From Escherichia coli (GTDB lineage: Bacteria > Pseudomonadota > Gammaproteobacteria > Enterobacterales > Enterobacteriaceae): a stretch of 64,000 bases of DNA. The notes under the pieces were generated by a model. That model worked only from the letters and a program-made list of their open reading frames with translations, made no database searches and was not told the DNA's origin. The stretch lies in assembly GCF_003018115.1 (NCBI RefSeq), contig NZ_CP027457.1, one strand, 5' to 3'. A program made the translations under genes and the position numbers. Shown in pieces: positions 2,961 to 5,748 of this stretch (the stretch's first letter is position 1; the number at the start of each line of letters is the position of its first letter).

Positions 2961-4366
2961 AGTGGTCCTACATCATCACCATCAATGTAAATCACGGCGT
3001 CTTTTTCCAGTTTGGCTAACCATCGCCGCATATTTTTCACGTCATACCCAAGCCGTTTCATGTCATCACGTAACAGCGGGATCGTGCACTTGTCGCCGTT
3101 CTGTGTGCGTGAACGGATGCACCCCCATAGTGCGGTATGGTTTTCCGTCTTGTTGCCTGCCTCCTCGATGCGTTCCAGTTCAACGGGAGGGCGCGGCTTA
3201 TCCACCACCACCAGCGACGTGATTAACTCCCCGTCAGCGTCGGTAAACAGCTCCACCACGCGTAAGTCATATGCGGCTTCTTTGAGTTCCTCCGCGTCCT
3301 TCATTTTGGTGCATGAGATAACCAGCGCTTCGCTTCCTGCGTCCTCCCTGCGTATCCGGTATTCAGCATCCAGTGATGCACGAAATGCACTGGAACCGCG
3401 CGCGCCTTTCGTCTCATCCTTGCCGGAATGGTGAACCACCAGCACCGTGGCCCCTGTGCGTCGTTTCAGTTCGTCACAACCACGGATAAACGCCCCCATA
3501 TCACGGGAATCATTTTCATCATTCCCACCAAAGCAACGCGCCAGCGTATCCAGAATAATCATGCGTACAGGTTTACCCGTTTCCCGCTCCACCTGACGGG
3601 CAGCGATAACCATTTCATCAACATCAAGCGGGACCGCCGGAAAGATGGGACGGTTTACCAGATACAGATTTTTCACCTGCTCACCGTGCACAACCTCCCA
3701 GGCTTTTACACGACGCGGAACGCCGATACCGCCTTCACCAACCACATAGAGAACAGCGCCATGCGCCACCCTGCGGCCTCCCCACTGGCGGCCCGTGGAA
3801 ACGTGACACGCCCACGATCCGGCAAGGAATGATTTATAGGAACCGCTCGCCCCGTATATGCTGCAAAGCGACGATGCCGGAATAATCCCCTTTACCACGT
3901 AATCAAGCTGTGTGTCGTATCCGGTAGATCCAACGCTCATCGGTAGCGTGGTTTTTCGCTGGGGGATTTTTTTCATGACCAGGCTTTCCCCGCGTTCCCA
4001 TGCCTCCCTAAGCCGTGGAAGCTGGTCGCTCCATTCCTCCAGCAATTCGAAATTTTCAGAAAGTAGCCGCGCCTCCTGGACTCCGGCGATCGCCAGTTTC
4101 GTGGCGATGGTTAACAGCTGCGGCTCTTCAATATTTCCGGCGCGTATCACCGTCGCCCTGTATCGCCCATCATCAACAATCTGGAGGTTATCCAGTTTGC
4201 TTAACTGATAACGCCCCAGATAAACGGGAGGGACTGGATCGCCTGCTTTTTTGGCCTGTGCAATGATGTAATGCTCTGCGAATGAGTGAGCATCAATACC
4301 CGCAAAAATAATCGCATCGGTGTATTTATCTTTCGGTAATCGTTTTACGTTCGGTGCCAGTTTCAT
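2957..4366 (-). CDS. Replication initiator / helicase-type RecA-fold ATPase (469 aa)
   Basis: Walker A-like GASGSYKS, downstream ILDTLARC and VVHHSGKD motifs typical of RepA/DnaB-like satellite or plasmid replication ATPases; iterons follow the gene. Confidence 0.75.
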   Translation of the reverse strand: MKLAPNVKRLPKDKYTDAIIFAGIDAHSFAEHYIIAQAKKAGDPVPPVYLGRYQLSKLDNLQIVDDGRYRATVIRAGNIEEPQLLTIATKLAIAGVQEARLLSENFELLEEWSDQLPRLREAWERGESLVMKKIPQRKTTLPMSVGSTGYDTQLDYVVKGIIPASSLCSIYGASGSYKSFLAGSWACHVSTGRQWGGRRVAHGAVLYVVGEGGIGVPRRVKAWEVVHGEQVKNLYLVNRPIFPAVPLDVDEMVIAARQVERETGKPVRMIILDTLARCFGGNDENDSRDMGAFIRGCDELKRRTGATVLVVHHSGKDETKGARGSSAFRASLDAEYRIRREDAGSEALVISCTKMKDAEELKEAAYDLRVVELFTDADGELITSLVVVDKPRPPVELERIEEAGNKTENHTALWGCIRSRTQNGDKCTIPLLRDDMKRLGYDVKNMRRWLAKLEKDAVIYIDGDDVGPL

Positions 4367-4662
4367 TTTTTACCCCTGAATCCGTTAATCATGGTTTTCA
4401 GCTTCTGGATGTTTGCCCGTGCCCTGGCGTTGCTGGTGGGCACGTTATGCGGCGCGGTCTGTACCAGAGAAAAATCACGCCGGAACTGATAAACAGGCAT
4501 CACGCAATCATATTCGTAACCTTCACGGCGGTAAGTTACGCACCGTCCCGCCACGCCCTTAATCATTACCGTGCCGCCGTACTGGTCGCGGTAAATATCA
4601 CCGCGCGTAAATTTAGGGTGAGTGTTGCCACTGGCAGTTAAGCCAGAATATTTAAGTTTCAT
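4363..4662 (-). CDS. Hypothetical protein (99 aa), translationally coupled to the replication ATPase
   Basis: ORF track; GGAG SD 10 nt upstream of ATG; stop overlaps ATPase start (ATGA). Confidence 0.6.
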   Translation of the reverse strand: MKLKYSGLTASGNTHPKFTRGDIYRDQYGGTVMIKGVAGRCVTYRREGYEYDCVMPVYQFRRDFSLVQTAPHNVPTSNARARANIQKLKTMINGFRGKK

Positions 4663-4667
4663 TATTT

Positions 4668-4901
4668 TTATTCTCCGGTGTGCTGTTCGTTATATCTGTC
4701 GTGCAATGTCTCTATTTCCTGCAACTCATTTATTACAGGCTCAAGAAGCGTTATTAATGCCGTGGCAATTCTTGATTTTTGTTTGTCGCGTTCATTGTCG
4801 CCAAGTGTTTCAAGCCATATGCGCAATATTTCCATCATATTTTCACTGTGAGAAAGTGCAAGAAATACGCGATCTGTTGTTTCGTGGTAAATATCACGCA
4901 T
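4668..4901 (-). CDS. Hypothetical small protein (77 aa)
   Basis: ORF track; ATG 1 nt after the stop of the upstream ORF. Confidence 0.55.
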   Translation of the reverse strand: MRDIYHETTDRVFLALSHSENMMEILRIWLETLGDNERDKQKSRIATALITLLEPVINELQEIETLHDRYNEQHTGE

Positions 4902-4902
4902 A

Positions 4903-5142
4903 TTAATTACCGTCCGTTGTTTTTCTTAAAACAGCTTCTGTCACGAAATCGGCATAGTTAGCGGCAATATCAAGAATATTTAGCCCTGTATCTCTGTGCT
5001 CATCAGTGCAAAGAAAGAAAAAAGCCACCCGCATAATTTCAGATATTGACGAAAGCGCATCAGCCGCATCATCAGGAACGCCGGAAAATTCTTGTTTCAG
5101 GGAATAAAAACGATCATCACGCATAACCCCCCCCATTTTCAC
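4903..5142 (-). CDS. Hypothetical small protein (73-79 aa; probable start ATG 5124 or 5136)
   Basis: ORF track (GTG start at 5142); G8 tract lies in its 5' end / ribosome-binding region. Confidence 0.5.
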   Translation of the reverse strand: MKMGGVMRDDRFYSLKQEFSGVPDDAADALSSISEIMRVAFFFLCTDEHRDTGLNILDIAANYADFVTEAVLRKTTDGN

Positions 5143-5356
5143 AATCAGTAATCAGGATGGTTTTAGCCTCATTCAGTGCCATATCAGCACTAAATTGCAT
5201 AACAGCCAGTGAGTGAGGAACGAAAGCCCCGGTATATTCTGTTTCGCTGGTGGCGTGCTTATGTGCCCTGTCCGCGATAACAGAAATATCAATCAGCGCG
5301 TGCATCAGCGTTTTGATGGCTTCGGCGGCTGCGTCCGGTGTGGTTTTATTGTGCAT
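5117..5356 (-). CDS. Hypothetical small protein (79 aa)
   Basis: ORF track; ATG overlaps upstream ORF end by 11 nt. Confidence 0.55.
   Translation of the reverse strand: MHNKTTPDAAAEAIKTLMHALIDISVIADRAHKHATSETEYTGAFVPHSLAVMQFSADMALNEAKTILITDCENGGGYA
5127..5134. repeat. G8 homopolymer (coding strand) at the junction of two small ORFs
   Basis: cccccccc on plus strand; encodes GGG of the upstream ORF C-terminus (..ENGGGYA*) and overlaps the start region of the next ORF. Confidence 0.9.
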
Positions 5357-5558
5357 AAAGCATCCCCTGAATATTCGTGTTAATCATTCCGGCACGTTTT
5401 GTGATTTCCTGTAATGATTCCCTTGTGGCGACAATTGCTTCATCTGGTAAGTGGTAATTACACACCACGCGACCTTTATCCACATTGACCAGTAGCTGCC
5501 CTGTGAATTTCTCACGAAACTGAATGCGGTTAAGGTCAGTAAGTGACAGATTAATAAT
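5346..5558 (-). CDS. Hypothetical small protein (~70 aa) with apparent non-canonical ATT start
   Basis: Protein-like frame IINLSLTDLNRIQFREKF...; AGGAGG SD (5570-5565) 6 nt before ATT (5558-5556); no ATG/GTG/TTG at that spacing. The ORF-track N-terminal extension to 5675 looks non-coding. Confidence 0.4.
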   Translation of the reverse strand: MINLSLTDLNRIQFREKFTGQLLVNVDKGRVVCNYHLPDEAIVATRESLQEITKRAGMINTNIQGMLYAQ

Positions 5559-5748
5559 GGCGCACCTCCTGACGAATACGGGCGGCAAATACAGCAACAC
5601 AACCGGACGGGCAACGGTTACGCGCTTCGCGTTCCGTCCAGGCGGTGACGTGGATGATTTGAGATTCTCCGGCACTCAGGGCCAGAAAACGCCACACAAA
5701 GGCAGTTTGTGTGTGTACAAGGTGTGGTATATGATTTACGGCAACCAT
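5551..5748 (-). CDS. Hypothetical small protein (65 aa), first gene of the minus-strand operon
   Basis: ORF track; GAGGAG SD 5 nt upstream of ATG; lies directly downstream of the operator-bearing divergent promoter region. Confidence 0.6.
   Translation of the reverse strand: MVAVNHIPHLVHTQTAFVWRFLALSAGESQIIHVTAWTEREARNRCPSGCVAVFAARIRQEVRHY

What the first reader, a model, noticed from the sequence alone, without database searches (positions are those of the whole stretch)
4363..5748. Tightly coupled operon of six small unknown ORFs (65-99 aa) upstream of the replication ATPase
Six consecutive minus-strand ORFs have overlapping or near-abutting stop/start codons (ATGA, 1-nt, 5-nt and 11-nt junctions), their own SDs and no recognisable domains. 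They sit between a palindrome-rich switch region and the replication gene. In phage satellites and PICIs this position usually holds helper-sensing or helper-interference functions, so this is my best candidate for an uncharacterised multi-component system. Two members (4668..4901 and 4903..5142) may be distant paralogs.
Basis: partly seen in the sequence, partly recalled or inferred. Interest (0 to 1): 0.75.

Follow-up and report, generated by a model that had tools for sequence, protein, structure and literature searches.

The report
Early small-gene array of a phage satellite
The six small genes are real. They are the shuffled early-gene array of a common E. coli phage satellite: two belong to known families, and two are one module pair split by a variable run of G's, so this is not a new six-part system.

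Summary
The ORFs and their coupled junctions are at the stated coordinates, and all six evolve as coding sequence (dN/dS 0.24-0.41).

**What the element is.** The window carries a PICI-type phage satellite at tRNA-Pro next to yejM. The ORFs are the promoter-proximal part of its leftward early operon: operator-covered promoter, structured leader, small genes, RepA helicase, PerC, terminator.

**Known families.**
- O1 is an Icd-like protein, the family of P4 Kil.
- O6 is a DUF4222 protein, 96% identical to the copy in an E. coli O157:H7 island. It matches the published LEE regulator RgdR in length and RGD motif.

**Not a fixed set.** Across about 150 related loci every slot is swapped, moved or missing. 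The window's exact order occurs in about 5 of 63 O6-anchored loci.

**O3 and O4.** They meet at a G8 tract that ranges from G7 to G11 in relatives. G7 and G10 fuse them into one 150-aa protein. Nine of 13 groups with identical flanks differ in tract length.

**Negative results.** O4 and O5 are not paralogs. Nothing matches known defence-system models.

**Closest analogues.** These are the phage P4 left operon and an Icd-like cell-death locus in E. coli ECOR61.

The function of O2-O5 remains unknown.

The parts
5838..5890 (-). Promoter and operators of the small-gene operon. -35 TTGACG is at 5879-5874 and -10 TAAATT at 5856-5851 (17-nt spacer). Three 11-13-bp palindromes GTGTT(C/T)AACAC lie at 5890-5880, 5874-5864 and 5850-5838. 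An extra half-site pair is at 5827-5817.
   Evidence: Sequence reading, promoter scan, repeat families D5/I9. That a repressor binds here is an inference.
5771..5810 (-). Leader RNA hairpin (CCCCG...CGGGG with an inner helix), followed by the invariant CUUCUAACCA. It lies upstream of the O1 Shine-Dalgarno sequence.
   Evidence: Present upstream of the first gene in related loci, with differing stem sequences. 7 of 8 predicted pairs show compensatory changes. The leader folds with z = -3.55. TCTAACC occurs only twice in the 64-kb window, both times in this context. No Rfam family matches.
5551..5748 (-). O1: a 65-aa Icd-like protein, the family of the phage P4 Kil polypeptide. Predicted host cell-division inhibitor or toxic early protein.
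   Evidence: NF033153 at 5e-18, 64.8 bits against cutoff 25. phrog_1743 at 5e-23; the P4 'cI ORF137' (the eta/kil frame) hits the same PHROG at 8e-21. hhalign to the C-terminal 65 aa of that P4 ORF is colinear over 50 columns, E 4e-4, probability 34%. dN/dS 0.26.
5346..5558 (-). O2: a 70-aa facultative cassette of unknown function. Its start codon is ATT in this window.
   Evidence: phrog_340 at 8e-23. No Pfam hit. ATT here versus ATG in relatives. The gene is absent or replaced by an unrelated 77-aa gene in most relatives. A homolog sits in slot 5 elsewhere (27% over 48 aa, E 3e-6). A 127-aa version lies between O3 and O4 in 12 loci.
5117..5356 (-). O3: a 79-aa acidic helical-hairpin module. 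It is the N-terminal half of the 150-aa fused protein found in relatives.
   Evidence: phrog_5146, and the N-terminal half of phrog_2512. Fused forms appear. Helices 7-37 and 45-73 in a low-confidence model. dN/dS 0.24. Two allele classes about 50% identical.
5127..5134 (-). Poly-G tract (G8 here) at the O3/O4 junction. It is a hypervariable frameshift point and also the likely Shine-Dalgarno sequence for O4.
   Evidence: G7 24, G8 38, G9 23, G10 5, G11 2 in 92 loci. 9 of 13 groups with identical 468-nt flanks differ in length. Each protein form occurs on 123-244 contigs. The O157:H7 copy is G7.
4903..5124 (-). O4: a 73-aa acidic helical-hairpin module. It is the C-terminal half of the fused protein and keeps its own ATG in all frame states.
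   Evidence: phrog_24341, and the C-terminal half of phrog_2512. The ORF is intact (73 or 77 aa) in nearly all loci whatever the tract length. dN/dS 0.27.
4668..4901 (-). O5: a 77-aa predicted helical protein of unknown function.
   Evidence: phrog_2196 at 6e-39. No Pfam hit. dN/dS 0.25. Divergent homologs include one directly upstream of the primase in the Klebsiella-type capsid-forming satellite vB_KppS-Ant. The slot is empty or differently filled in about 17 loci.
4363..4662 (-). O6: a 99-aa basic DUF4222 protein of the RgdR family, with RGD at residues 20-22. It is translationally coupled (ATGA) to RepA.
2957..4366 (-). RepA-family (AAA_25) replication helicase, next in the same operon.
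   Evidence: phrog_2850 at 4e-223, PF13481, PGAP 'helicase RepA family protein'.
2211..2772 (-). Distal end of the operon: a 91-aa protein (2497-2772), a PerC/Pch-family regulator (2235-2507), and an intrinsic terminator hairpin with a T-run (2228-2211).
   Evidence: ORFs. PerC. Terminator scan.
5932..7059 (+). Divergent regulatory genes in two tandem cassettes. The first is the YlcI/YnfO-family ribbon-helix-helix-like gene 5932-6120 with partner 6178-6405. The second is the Arc-like gene 6625-6798 with partner 6856-7059. These are candidate repressors of the small-gene promoter.
   Evidence: NF041551 at 2.4e-16 and 4.8e-4. Arc-like PHROG. Duplicated 75-nt and 49-nt segments and a second palindrome set ATGGTAATTACCAT. 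The repressor role is inferred.

Best explanation
The six ORFs are the promoter-proximal part of the early (replication) operon of a PICI-type phage satellite integrated at tRNA-Pro. Steps marked 'shown' rest on tool results; the others are inference.

**Transcription.** It most likely starts at a sigma-70 promoter buried in three palindromic operators. It then passes a conserved leader hairpin, the small genes, repA, a 91-aa gene and perC, and ends at an intrinsic terminator. The anatomy is shown; the activity is inferred.

**State in the lysogen (inferred).** The operon is probably held off by one of the divergently encoded ribbon-helix-helix proteins. It would be turned on when a helper phage induces the satellite. 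The route may be the AlpA-like regulator, as published for E. coli PICIs.

**Nature of the genes.** They are an array of independently exchangeable cassettes, not a six-subunit machine (shown).
- O1 is a Kil/Icd-like polypeptide. It would arrest host division, or kill the cell, once the operon is derepressed (family membership shown, activity inferred).
- O6 is an RgdR-type small basic beta-barrel protein coupled to RepA. It is a pleiotropic nucleic-acid- or polymerase-binding modulator whose effects on LEE and motility are published.
- O3 and O4 are two helical-hairpin modules joined by a flexible linker that is encoded by a hypermutable G tract. The population therefore carries tethered (G7/G10) and untethered (G8/G9/G11) versions, while O4 is always translatable from its own ATG. 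The polymorphism is shown; its consequence is inferred.
- O2 and O5 are small accessory proteins, probably protein-binding. Their targets in the host or the helper phage are unknown.
For: **Element identity.**
- Integrase, AlpA-like HTH, RepA, PerC and a protease-capsid fusion gene lie next to tRNA-Pro and yejM.
- The same backbone occurs at other attachment sites with other late genes.
- The four-zone PICI organisation is described in PMC10111431.
- AlpA is reported as the activator in PMC6092414.

**Operon anatomy.**
- Coupled junctions.
- Promoter and terminator.
- Operators.
- Leader hairpin with covariation.

**Coding status.** dN/dS is 0.24-0.41.

**Families.**
- Icd-like.
- P4 Kil link.
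- DUF4222/RgdR.
- O6 fold.

**Mosaicism.**
- 12 loci.
- 92 junction-anchored loci.
- 63 O6-anchored loci. The commonest order there is O1-O3-O4-O5-O6-RepA (12 loci). The window's exact order occurs in about 5.
- 12 loci have an O2-like gene between O3 and O4.

**Poly-G tract.**

**P4 synteny.** The P4 left operon has the same logic: Kil/Eta frame, then small genes including epsilon, then the primase.
Against: - No expression data. The promoter, the repressor assignment and the AlpA route are all inferences.
- O1 is linked to P4 Kil only through a shared PHROG and a weak hhalign score. Direct BLASTP finds nothing.
- O2-O5 have no homolog of known function, so 'accessory host/helper modulators' is a class assignment, not a demonstrated activity.
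- The O3-O4 structure model is poor (pLDDT 61).
- Some tract-length differences could be assembly errors, although each form recurs on more than 100 contigs.
- Tight coupling and the ECOR61 result leave room for a functional sub-complex within the array.
Confidence: 0.7

Rival explanations
1. At least the O1-proximal genes form a dedicated phage-sensing abortive-infection or superinfection-exclusion system. One or more small proteins sense a phage product and release the Kil/Icd-like effector.
For: - Tight translational coupling.
- In ECOR61, transposon suppressors of phage-protein-triggered cell death mapped to an Icd-like gene and the two overlapping small ORFs after it. All six linked genes, including the primase, were needed to rebuild the effect. 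Removing the Icd-like gene abolished it.
- EcCIMP1, another E. coli PICI, adds superinfection immunity against its helper.
Against: - The gene set is not conserved as a unit.
- O2 has a non-canonical start here.
- The O3/O4 frame state is distributed close to one third per frame, so no single configuration is required.
- No PADLOC model matches.
- The ECOR61 effector has a long N-terminal extension that is lacking here.
- Homology of its partner ORFs to O2-O5 could not be checked.
Confidence: 0.2
2. The promoter-distal genes O5 and O6 are replication accessory factors for the downstream initiator. They would act as loader, origin-binding helper or copy-number regulator, analogous to P4 Cnr upstream of the alpha gene.
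For: - O6 is fused by ATGA to repA.
- O6 always sits directly upstream of the replication gene, whether that is RepA-type or primase-type.
- The two replication protein types share a 46%-identical N-terminal 121 aa.
- O6 is small and basic, and RgdR binds DNA non-specifically.
- P4 has a 106-aa gene in the same position.
- An O5-like gene directly precedes the primase in vB_KppS-Ant.
Against: - No sequence similarity to P4 Cnr/ORF106 or ORF151.
- An identical O6 pairs with both N-terminal domain types, so there is no sign of co-variation.
- RgdR acts in trans on chromosomal promoters without the island's replication gene.
- O5 is missing in about 17 loci that keep O6 and the replication gene.
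Confidence: 0.25
3. The ORFs are decaying or spurious reading frames in a defective island, and the junctions are chance.
For: - ATT start of O2.
- Frameshift-like split of O3/O4.
- A duplicated, partly truncated switch region upstream.
Against: - dN/dS is 0.24-0.41 in all six.
- ORFs are intact across about 150 loci.
- PHROG families exist for all six.
- The same array is found in hundreds of genomes.
Confidence: 0.03

Closest known systems
rgdR region of an E. coli O157:H7 island (O-island 51 / cryptic prophage CP-933C; Flockhart et al. 2012, PMC3378721)
   Same: An O157:H7 island at roxA-phoQ carries the same array: Icd-like, 70-aa O2, O3-O4, O5, DUF4222, RepA, then SSB and PerC. The six-ORF stretch is 93.5% identical in DNA and O6 is 96% identical in protein. 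RgdR is described as 99 aa, with RGD at residues 20-22, pI about 10, non-specific DNA binding, LEE1 activation and motility repression.
   Different: Here the island sits at tRNA-Pro and carries a protease-capsid fusion late gene instead of lambda E/D/Nu1-type genes. O3-O4 is split (G8) rather than fused (G7). I did not verify that the NE122 island is OI-51 itself. The published work characterised only rgdR, not its neighbours.
Left (early) operon of satellite phage P4: eta/kil, epsilon, orf151, orf106(cnr), alpha
   Same: Same architecture: an AlpA/Vis-type gene, then a Kil/Eta-frame gene, then several overlapping small genes, then the replication protein. O1 and the P4 eta/kil frame hit the same PHROG. 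O1 is 65 aa, and the C-terminal M-initiated part of the P4 frame is also 65 aa. The 185-aa 'Ash' variants in relatives parallel the long Eta form.
   Different: No detectable homology of O2-O6 to epsilon, ORF151 or Cnr. There is no C4/isrK-type immunity RNA. Control here appears to be protein-operator based, with divergent ribbon-helix-helix genes. The replication protein is RepA-type, not a primase-helicase.
ECOR61 prophage-encoded programmed-cell-death / superinfection-exclusion locus (Silas et al., bioRxiv 10.1101/2023.04.06.535777)
   Same: An Icd-like gene is followed by overlapping ORFs of about 62 aa, linked to a primase. [quoted passage not shown]
   Different: No phenotype is known for the window's array.
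Homopolymer contingency loci (slipped-strand phase variation, as in Neisseria, Campylobacter and Bordetella)
   Same: A G7-G11 tract at a coding junction. Its length varies among otherwise identical sequences and changes the reading frame. A second G7-G9 tract switches an alternative O5 allele between full-length and truncated forms.
   Different: The switch toggles the tethering of two modules rather than simple ON/OFF. It lies in a mobile satellite of E. coli. Within-clone switching and any phenotype are unproven. The tract may simply be the Shine-Dalgarno sequence of O4.

Membership tests
Gram-negative PICI-type phage satellite | Inward-pointing tyrosine integrase at a specific (tRNA) attachment site | tested here: met
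   Integrase at 7884-9125 (minus strand) beside tRNA-Pro at 9347-9420 and yejM.
Gram-negative PICI-type phage satellite | AlpA-family regulator just downstream of the integrase | tested here: inconclusive
   The 68-aa HTH gene at 7181-7387 hits 'excisionase and transcriptional regulator' PHROGs at only about 1e-7. It has no Pfam Phage_AlpA record. Sister elements at another site carry a bona fide PF05930 gene.
Gram-negative PICI-type phage satellite | Own replication module; small size; no tail or lysis genes | tested here: met
   RepA AAA_25. In relatives the element spans about 9.4 kb between tRNA-Pro and yejO, with a protease-capsid fusion as the only structural gene. The left end lies outside the window.
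Gram-negative PICI-type phage satellite | Induction, packaging and transfer dependent on a helper phage | not testable with these tools
   Needs experiments.
RgdR / DUF4222 family | Match to Pfam PF13973 and about 99 aa in length | tested here: met
   Precomputed PF13973 on the identical protein, plus PGAP naming. 99 aa.
RgdR / DUF4222 family | RGD tripeptide at residues 20-22 and near-identity to the EHEC protein | tested here: met
   R20-G21-D22 read from the sequence. 96% identical to the O157:H7 island copy. The motif is lineage-specific: the family consensus is PGD.
RgdR / DUF4222 family | Activates LEE1 and represses motility | not testable with these tools
   Published for ECs1581 and C1493 only.
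Icd-like / P4 Kil family | Score above the curated NF033153 cutoff | tested here: met
   64.8 bits against cutoff 25.
Icd-like / P4 Kil family | Homology to the P4 kil/eta reading frame | tested here: inconclusive
   Both hit phrog_1743 (5e-23 and 8e-21). hhalign is colinear, E 4e-4, but probability is only 34%. BLASTP finds nothing.
Icd-like / P4 Kil family | Inhibits cell division or kills on expression | not testable with these tools
   Needs expression in E. coli.
P4-like satellite accessory genes (epsilon, orf151, cnr) | Sequence homology of O2-O6 to these proteins | tested here: not met
   BLASTP gives only chance-level hits. O3 versus epsilon by hhalign: probability 8.8%. P4 ORF151 has no Pfam/DUF4222 match.
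P4/P1-type RNA immunity (C4, isrK, CI RNA) | Rfam C4 or isrK match in or before the first gene | tested here: not met
   No such hit at E up to 1 in positions 1-10000, nor at gathering score in the whole window.
Known anti-phage defence systems (PADLOC-DB 2.0) | Any component model matching | tested here: not met
   No meaningful hit for any of the eight proteins at E up to 0.1. The only match was O4 to a type II methyltransferase model at E 0.032, 11.3 bits.
ECOR61 Icd-like cell-death locus | [quoted passage not shown] | tested here: inconclusive
   O1 is the short 65-aa form. Long 'Ash' forms occur only in relatives. The partner ORF sequences (QOYT01000045.1:8940-9317) were not available.
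Phase-variable contingency locus | Homopolymer tract whose length differs among otherwise identical sequences and changes the frame | tested here: met
   G7-G11 in 92 loci. 9 of 13 identical-flank groups are polymorphic.
Phase-variable contingency locus | High-frequency reversible switching within a clone, with a phenotypic consequence | not testable with these tools
   Needs amplicon deep sequencing and phenotyping.

The most novel reading that the evidence does not exclude
The G tracts may be genuine contingency loci of a phage satellite. One lies at the O3/O4 junction and a second inside an alternative O5 allele. By slipped-strand changes, or by frameshifting during expression, a lysogen population would carry satellites whose early proteins are tethered, untethered or truncated. 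That would diversify how the satellite engages helper phages, or how it triggers its Kil-like effector. Phase-variable conflict genes have not been described in E. coli PICIs.
Probability: 0.2. Interest if true: 0.6.

Novelty: new member of a known kind. Interest (0 to 1): 0.35.

Why it matters
Parts of this array occur in about a quarter of complete E. coli genomes, including O157:H7. At least one member, RgdR, alters virulence gene expression. Yet four of the proteins have no assigned function.

Recognising the array as shuffled cassettes headed by a Kil/Icd-like gene gives a rational order for experiments:
1. O1 toxicity.
2. O6 partners.
3. The O3-O4 fusion states.

It also cautions against treating the array as one defence system. 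The variable G tract is a cheap, testable lead on how satellites might vary their early functions.

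Tried and rejected
- **C4/CI-type immunity RNA in O1.** No Rfam hit.
- **O4-O5 paralogy.** None found by BLASTP or hhalign. O3 versus O5 is also negative.
- **O3 as a P4 epsilon homolog.** A 21-aa BLASTP hit looked suggestive, but hhalign probability is 8.8% and the segment is not conserved in the second O3 allele.
- **O6 related to the N-terminus of P4 ORF151.** The shared 'GEIYR'/'GDIYR' motif was the lead. ORF151 has no Pfam match and BLASTP gives E 0.22.
- **Solved structures by sequence for O1 and O6.** None.
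- **Phage database.** DNA search found no match. Protein search found one hit, in the capsid-forming satellite vB_KppS-Ant.
- **Deep protein searches for O3-O4 and O5.** The listed hits were all near-identical E. coli proteins, so they gave no functional lead.
- **Fold search for the O3-O4 model.** Not run, because pLDDT 61 would give meaningless matches.
- **Locus search with the broad DUF4222 alignment.** It failed for lack of conserved stretches. The narrower alignment returned only close relatives.
- **Identity with EcCIEDL933.** I first suspected the element might be EcCIEDL933, the prototype capsid-forming PICI. I dropped this because that element is described as having portal and terminase genes, which are not seen in relatives of this one.

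Full report
**Observation**

- O1 5551-5748: 65 aa.
- O2 5346-5558: 70 aa.
- O3 5117-5356: 79 aa.
- O4 4903-5124: 73 aa.
- O5 4668-4901: 77 aa.
- O6 4363-4662: 99 aa.
- The RepA-family helicase gene follows at 2957-4366.

The junctions are as reported: ATGA (O6/RepA), a 1-nt spacer (O4/O5), a 5-nt spacer (O5/O6) and an 11-nt overlap (O2/O3). There are two further 8-nt overlaps, O1/O2 and O3/O4. Among relatives, the ratio of mean dN to mean dS is 0.24-0.41 for every ORF, so all six are protein-coding.

Two details differ from the description. The O2 start codon behind a strong AGGAGG is ATT in this window, but ATG in some relatives. O3 and O4 meet at a G8 tract.

**What the element is**

The window starts inside a protease/major-capsid fusion gene. 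Going rightwards, the minus strand then carries:
- PerC and a 91-aa gene.
- RepA and the six ORFs.
- A divergent promoter region.

Beyond the promoter region lie four plus-strand small genes. The minus strand then continues with an AlpA-like HTH gene, an 83-aa ORF, a tyrosine integrase and tRNA-Pro next to yejM.

Relatives show an element of about 9.4 kb between tRNA-Pro and yejO. The same backbone occurs at the roxA site with lambda-type capsid, decoration and small-terminase genes. This is the integration, Bro, replication and late organisation described for Gram-negative PICIs (PMC10111431; PMC6092414).

**Operon anatomy**

- **Promoter.** A promoter-like site, TTGACG-17-TAAATT, lies at 5879-5851. 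It is interleaved with three GTGTT(C/T)AACAC palindromes.
- **Leader.** The leader contains a hairpin followed by CUUCUAACCA. Related loci keep the hairpin while changing its sequence. Seven of eight predicted pairs show compensatory changes, and the fold z-score is -3.55.
- **Terminator.** An intrinsic terminator follows perC at 2228-2211.
- **Divergent genes.** One is a YlcI/YnfO-family protein and one is a weakly Arc-like protein.
- **Duplication.** The switch cassette is tandemly duplicated. The second copy has its own palindromes, promoter-like site, leader hairpin and a truncated Icd-like start.
- **Inference.** That these proteins repress the operon, and that AlpA-dependent activation turns it on, is inferred from anatomy and from published PICI work.

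**The individual genes**

*O1* scores 64.8 bits on NCBIfam's Icd-like model, against a cutoff of 25. It hits phrog_1743, as does the phage P4 'cI ORF137', which is the eta/kil reading frame. P4 Kil functions in cell killing and is a truncated form of Eta (Forti et al. 1999, as summarised in PMC10111431). The C-terminal, M-initiated part of the P4 frame is 65 aa, the same length as O1. A profile comparison aligns it colinearly with the O1 family (E 4e-4, probability 34%), although BLASTP finds nothing. The 185-aa 'Ash' variants in relatives parallel the long Eta form.

*O2-O5* fall in PHROG families of unknown function. They have no Pfam, NCBIfam or PADLOC match.

**Not a fixed six-gene unit**

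Three sets of related loci all show slot-by-slot mosaicism: 12 from genomes, 92 anchored on the O3/O4 junction and 63 anchored on O6.
- The first gene is a 65-aa Icd-like gene or a long Ash form.
- O2 is present, replaced by an unrelated 77-aa gene, or absent.
- An O2 homolog can instead occupy slot 5, or lie between O3 and O4 as a 127-aa version.
- O3 has two allele classes about 50% identical.
- O5 is replaced by a divergent allele, by the O2-like gene, or by nothing.
- The replication gene is either RepA-type or primase-type.

The window's exact order occurs in about 5 of the 63 O6-anchored loci. The commonest order lacks O2. By megablast, 1,384 of 5,426 complete E. coli genomes match part of the 1,386-bp stretch, but only 299 cover at least 80% of it. 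O4 and O5 are not paralogs.

**The poly-G junction**

| Tract length | Loci (of 92) |
|---|---|
| G7 | 24 |
| G8 | 38 |
| G9 | 23 |
| G10 | 5 |
| G11 | 2 |

- G7 and G10 fuse O3 and O4 into a 150/151-aa protein. This is the phrog_2512 form and the form in O157:H7.
- G8 ends O3 at a TGA that overlaps the O4 ATG.
- G9 gives an 86-aa O3.
- Nine of 13 groups of loci with identical 468-nt flanks differ in tract length.
- Each protein form is seen on 123-244 contigs.
- O4 stays intact in nearly all loci, and both halves are under purifying selection.
- A low-confidence model places the tract in a disordered linker between two helical hairpins.
- An alternative O5 allele has its own G7-G9 tract with full-length and truncated states.

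The tract may be a contingency switch, or simply a G-rich ribosome-binding site that happens to be hypermutable. No paper in the searchable library links PICIs with homopolymer variation.

**Comparison with known systems**

- **Closest match.** The rgdR-containing island region of O157:H7.
- **Closest architectural analogue.** The P4 left operon (Kil/Eta frame, epsilon, orf151, cnr, alpha). O2-O6 show no homology to P4's small proteins, and no C4-type RNA is present.
- **Closest functional lead.** The ECOR61 locus. There, an Icd-like gene, two following small ORFs and linked genes including a primase cause cell death when a phage accessory protein is expressed. I could not test sequence homology to that locus.

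**Verdict**

The interpretation as a novel six-component system is not supported. The array is a member of a known kind: the early accessory-gene array of an E. coli phage satellite, with two recognisable families and four proteins still of unknown function. The variable G tract and the covarying leader hairpin are the only apparently undescribed features, and both are modest.

Noticed in passing
window 5932-7059 (+) and 6440-6631 (-): The regulatory switch is tandemly duplicated. The second cassette (6625-7059) has its own palindromes ATGGTAATTACCAT (6583-6596 and 6615-6628, plus a degenerate copy at 6570-6586). It also has a promoter-like site TTGACA-17-TACTAT (6631-6603, minus strand), a second copy of the leader hairpin plus UCUAACCA (6517-6565), and a truncated Icd-like start (ATG 6494, MAIKEHSLLFIHTQT...). 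The mechanical 496-aa minus-strand ORF 5736-7226 is an artefact of this region.
   Followed up: partly
window 5771-5810 (-): A conserved leader hairpin followed by the invariant CUUCUAACCA. It sits upstream of different first genes and downstream of different operator types in related satellites. 7 of 8 pairs are compensatory, and no Rfam family matches. Its function is unknown; processing, stability or antitermination are possibilities.
   Followed up: partly
window 6114-6188 and 6792-6866 (+): A 75-nt repeat (80% identical) with a GC-rich hairpin (GCGCCGTGG...CGGCGC), placed between each ribbon-helix-helix-like gene and its partner gene.
   Followed up: no
window 5693-5713 (-): A terminator-like hairpin (CACACAAA-CTGCC-TTTGTGTG, then GCGTTTTCTG) inside the 5' part of the O1 coding sequence. 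It recalls translation-dependent termination control in the P4 kil region, but this was not tested.
   Followed up: no
L018, L019, L032, L037, L043, L075, L083 (about 320 nt downstream of the O3/O4 junction): A divergent O5 allele (69 aa, MDKIPFDVLIHSEN...) carries its own G7-G9 tract in the loop between its helices. This gives full-length (69 aa) or truncated (47-52 aa) products in different loci.
   Followed up: partly
L006 6536-6913 and L011 9938-10294, compared with window 4004-4366: The first 121 residues of the RepA-type (AAA_25) replication protein and of the primase-type (D5_N/DUF5906) protein are 46% identical. The two replication enzymes therefore share an N-terminal module next to O6.
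   Followed up: no
L004 4995-5555 and equivalents in L006, L007, L010: The 185-186-aa 'Ash family' proteins match O1 twice: at the N-terminus (aa 1-47, about 65% identical) and at the C-terminus (aa 7-60, about 82% identical). They look like an Icd-like gene with an internal insertion or duplication.
   Followed up: no
protein cluster of O6 (cluster 8): The 90%-identity cluster that contains O6 also holds 440-465-aa 'helicase RepA family' proteins. These could be O6-RepA fusion variants or a clustering artefact.
   Followed up: no
window 2183-2190: Another G8 tract (C8 on the plus strand), just downstream of the perC terminator. No relative in my locus set matched its exact flanks, so length variation could not be assessed.
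   Followed up: partly
window 13136-13161 (-) and 58884-58961 (+): Ordinary chromosomal RNA elements: the ribosomal protein L25 leader and naRNA4. The rest of the window (9495 onwards) looks like core E. coli chromosome: yejM, yejL and yejK by their sequences here, then rplY and radD in relatives.
   Followed up: no
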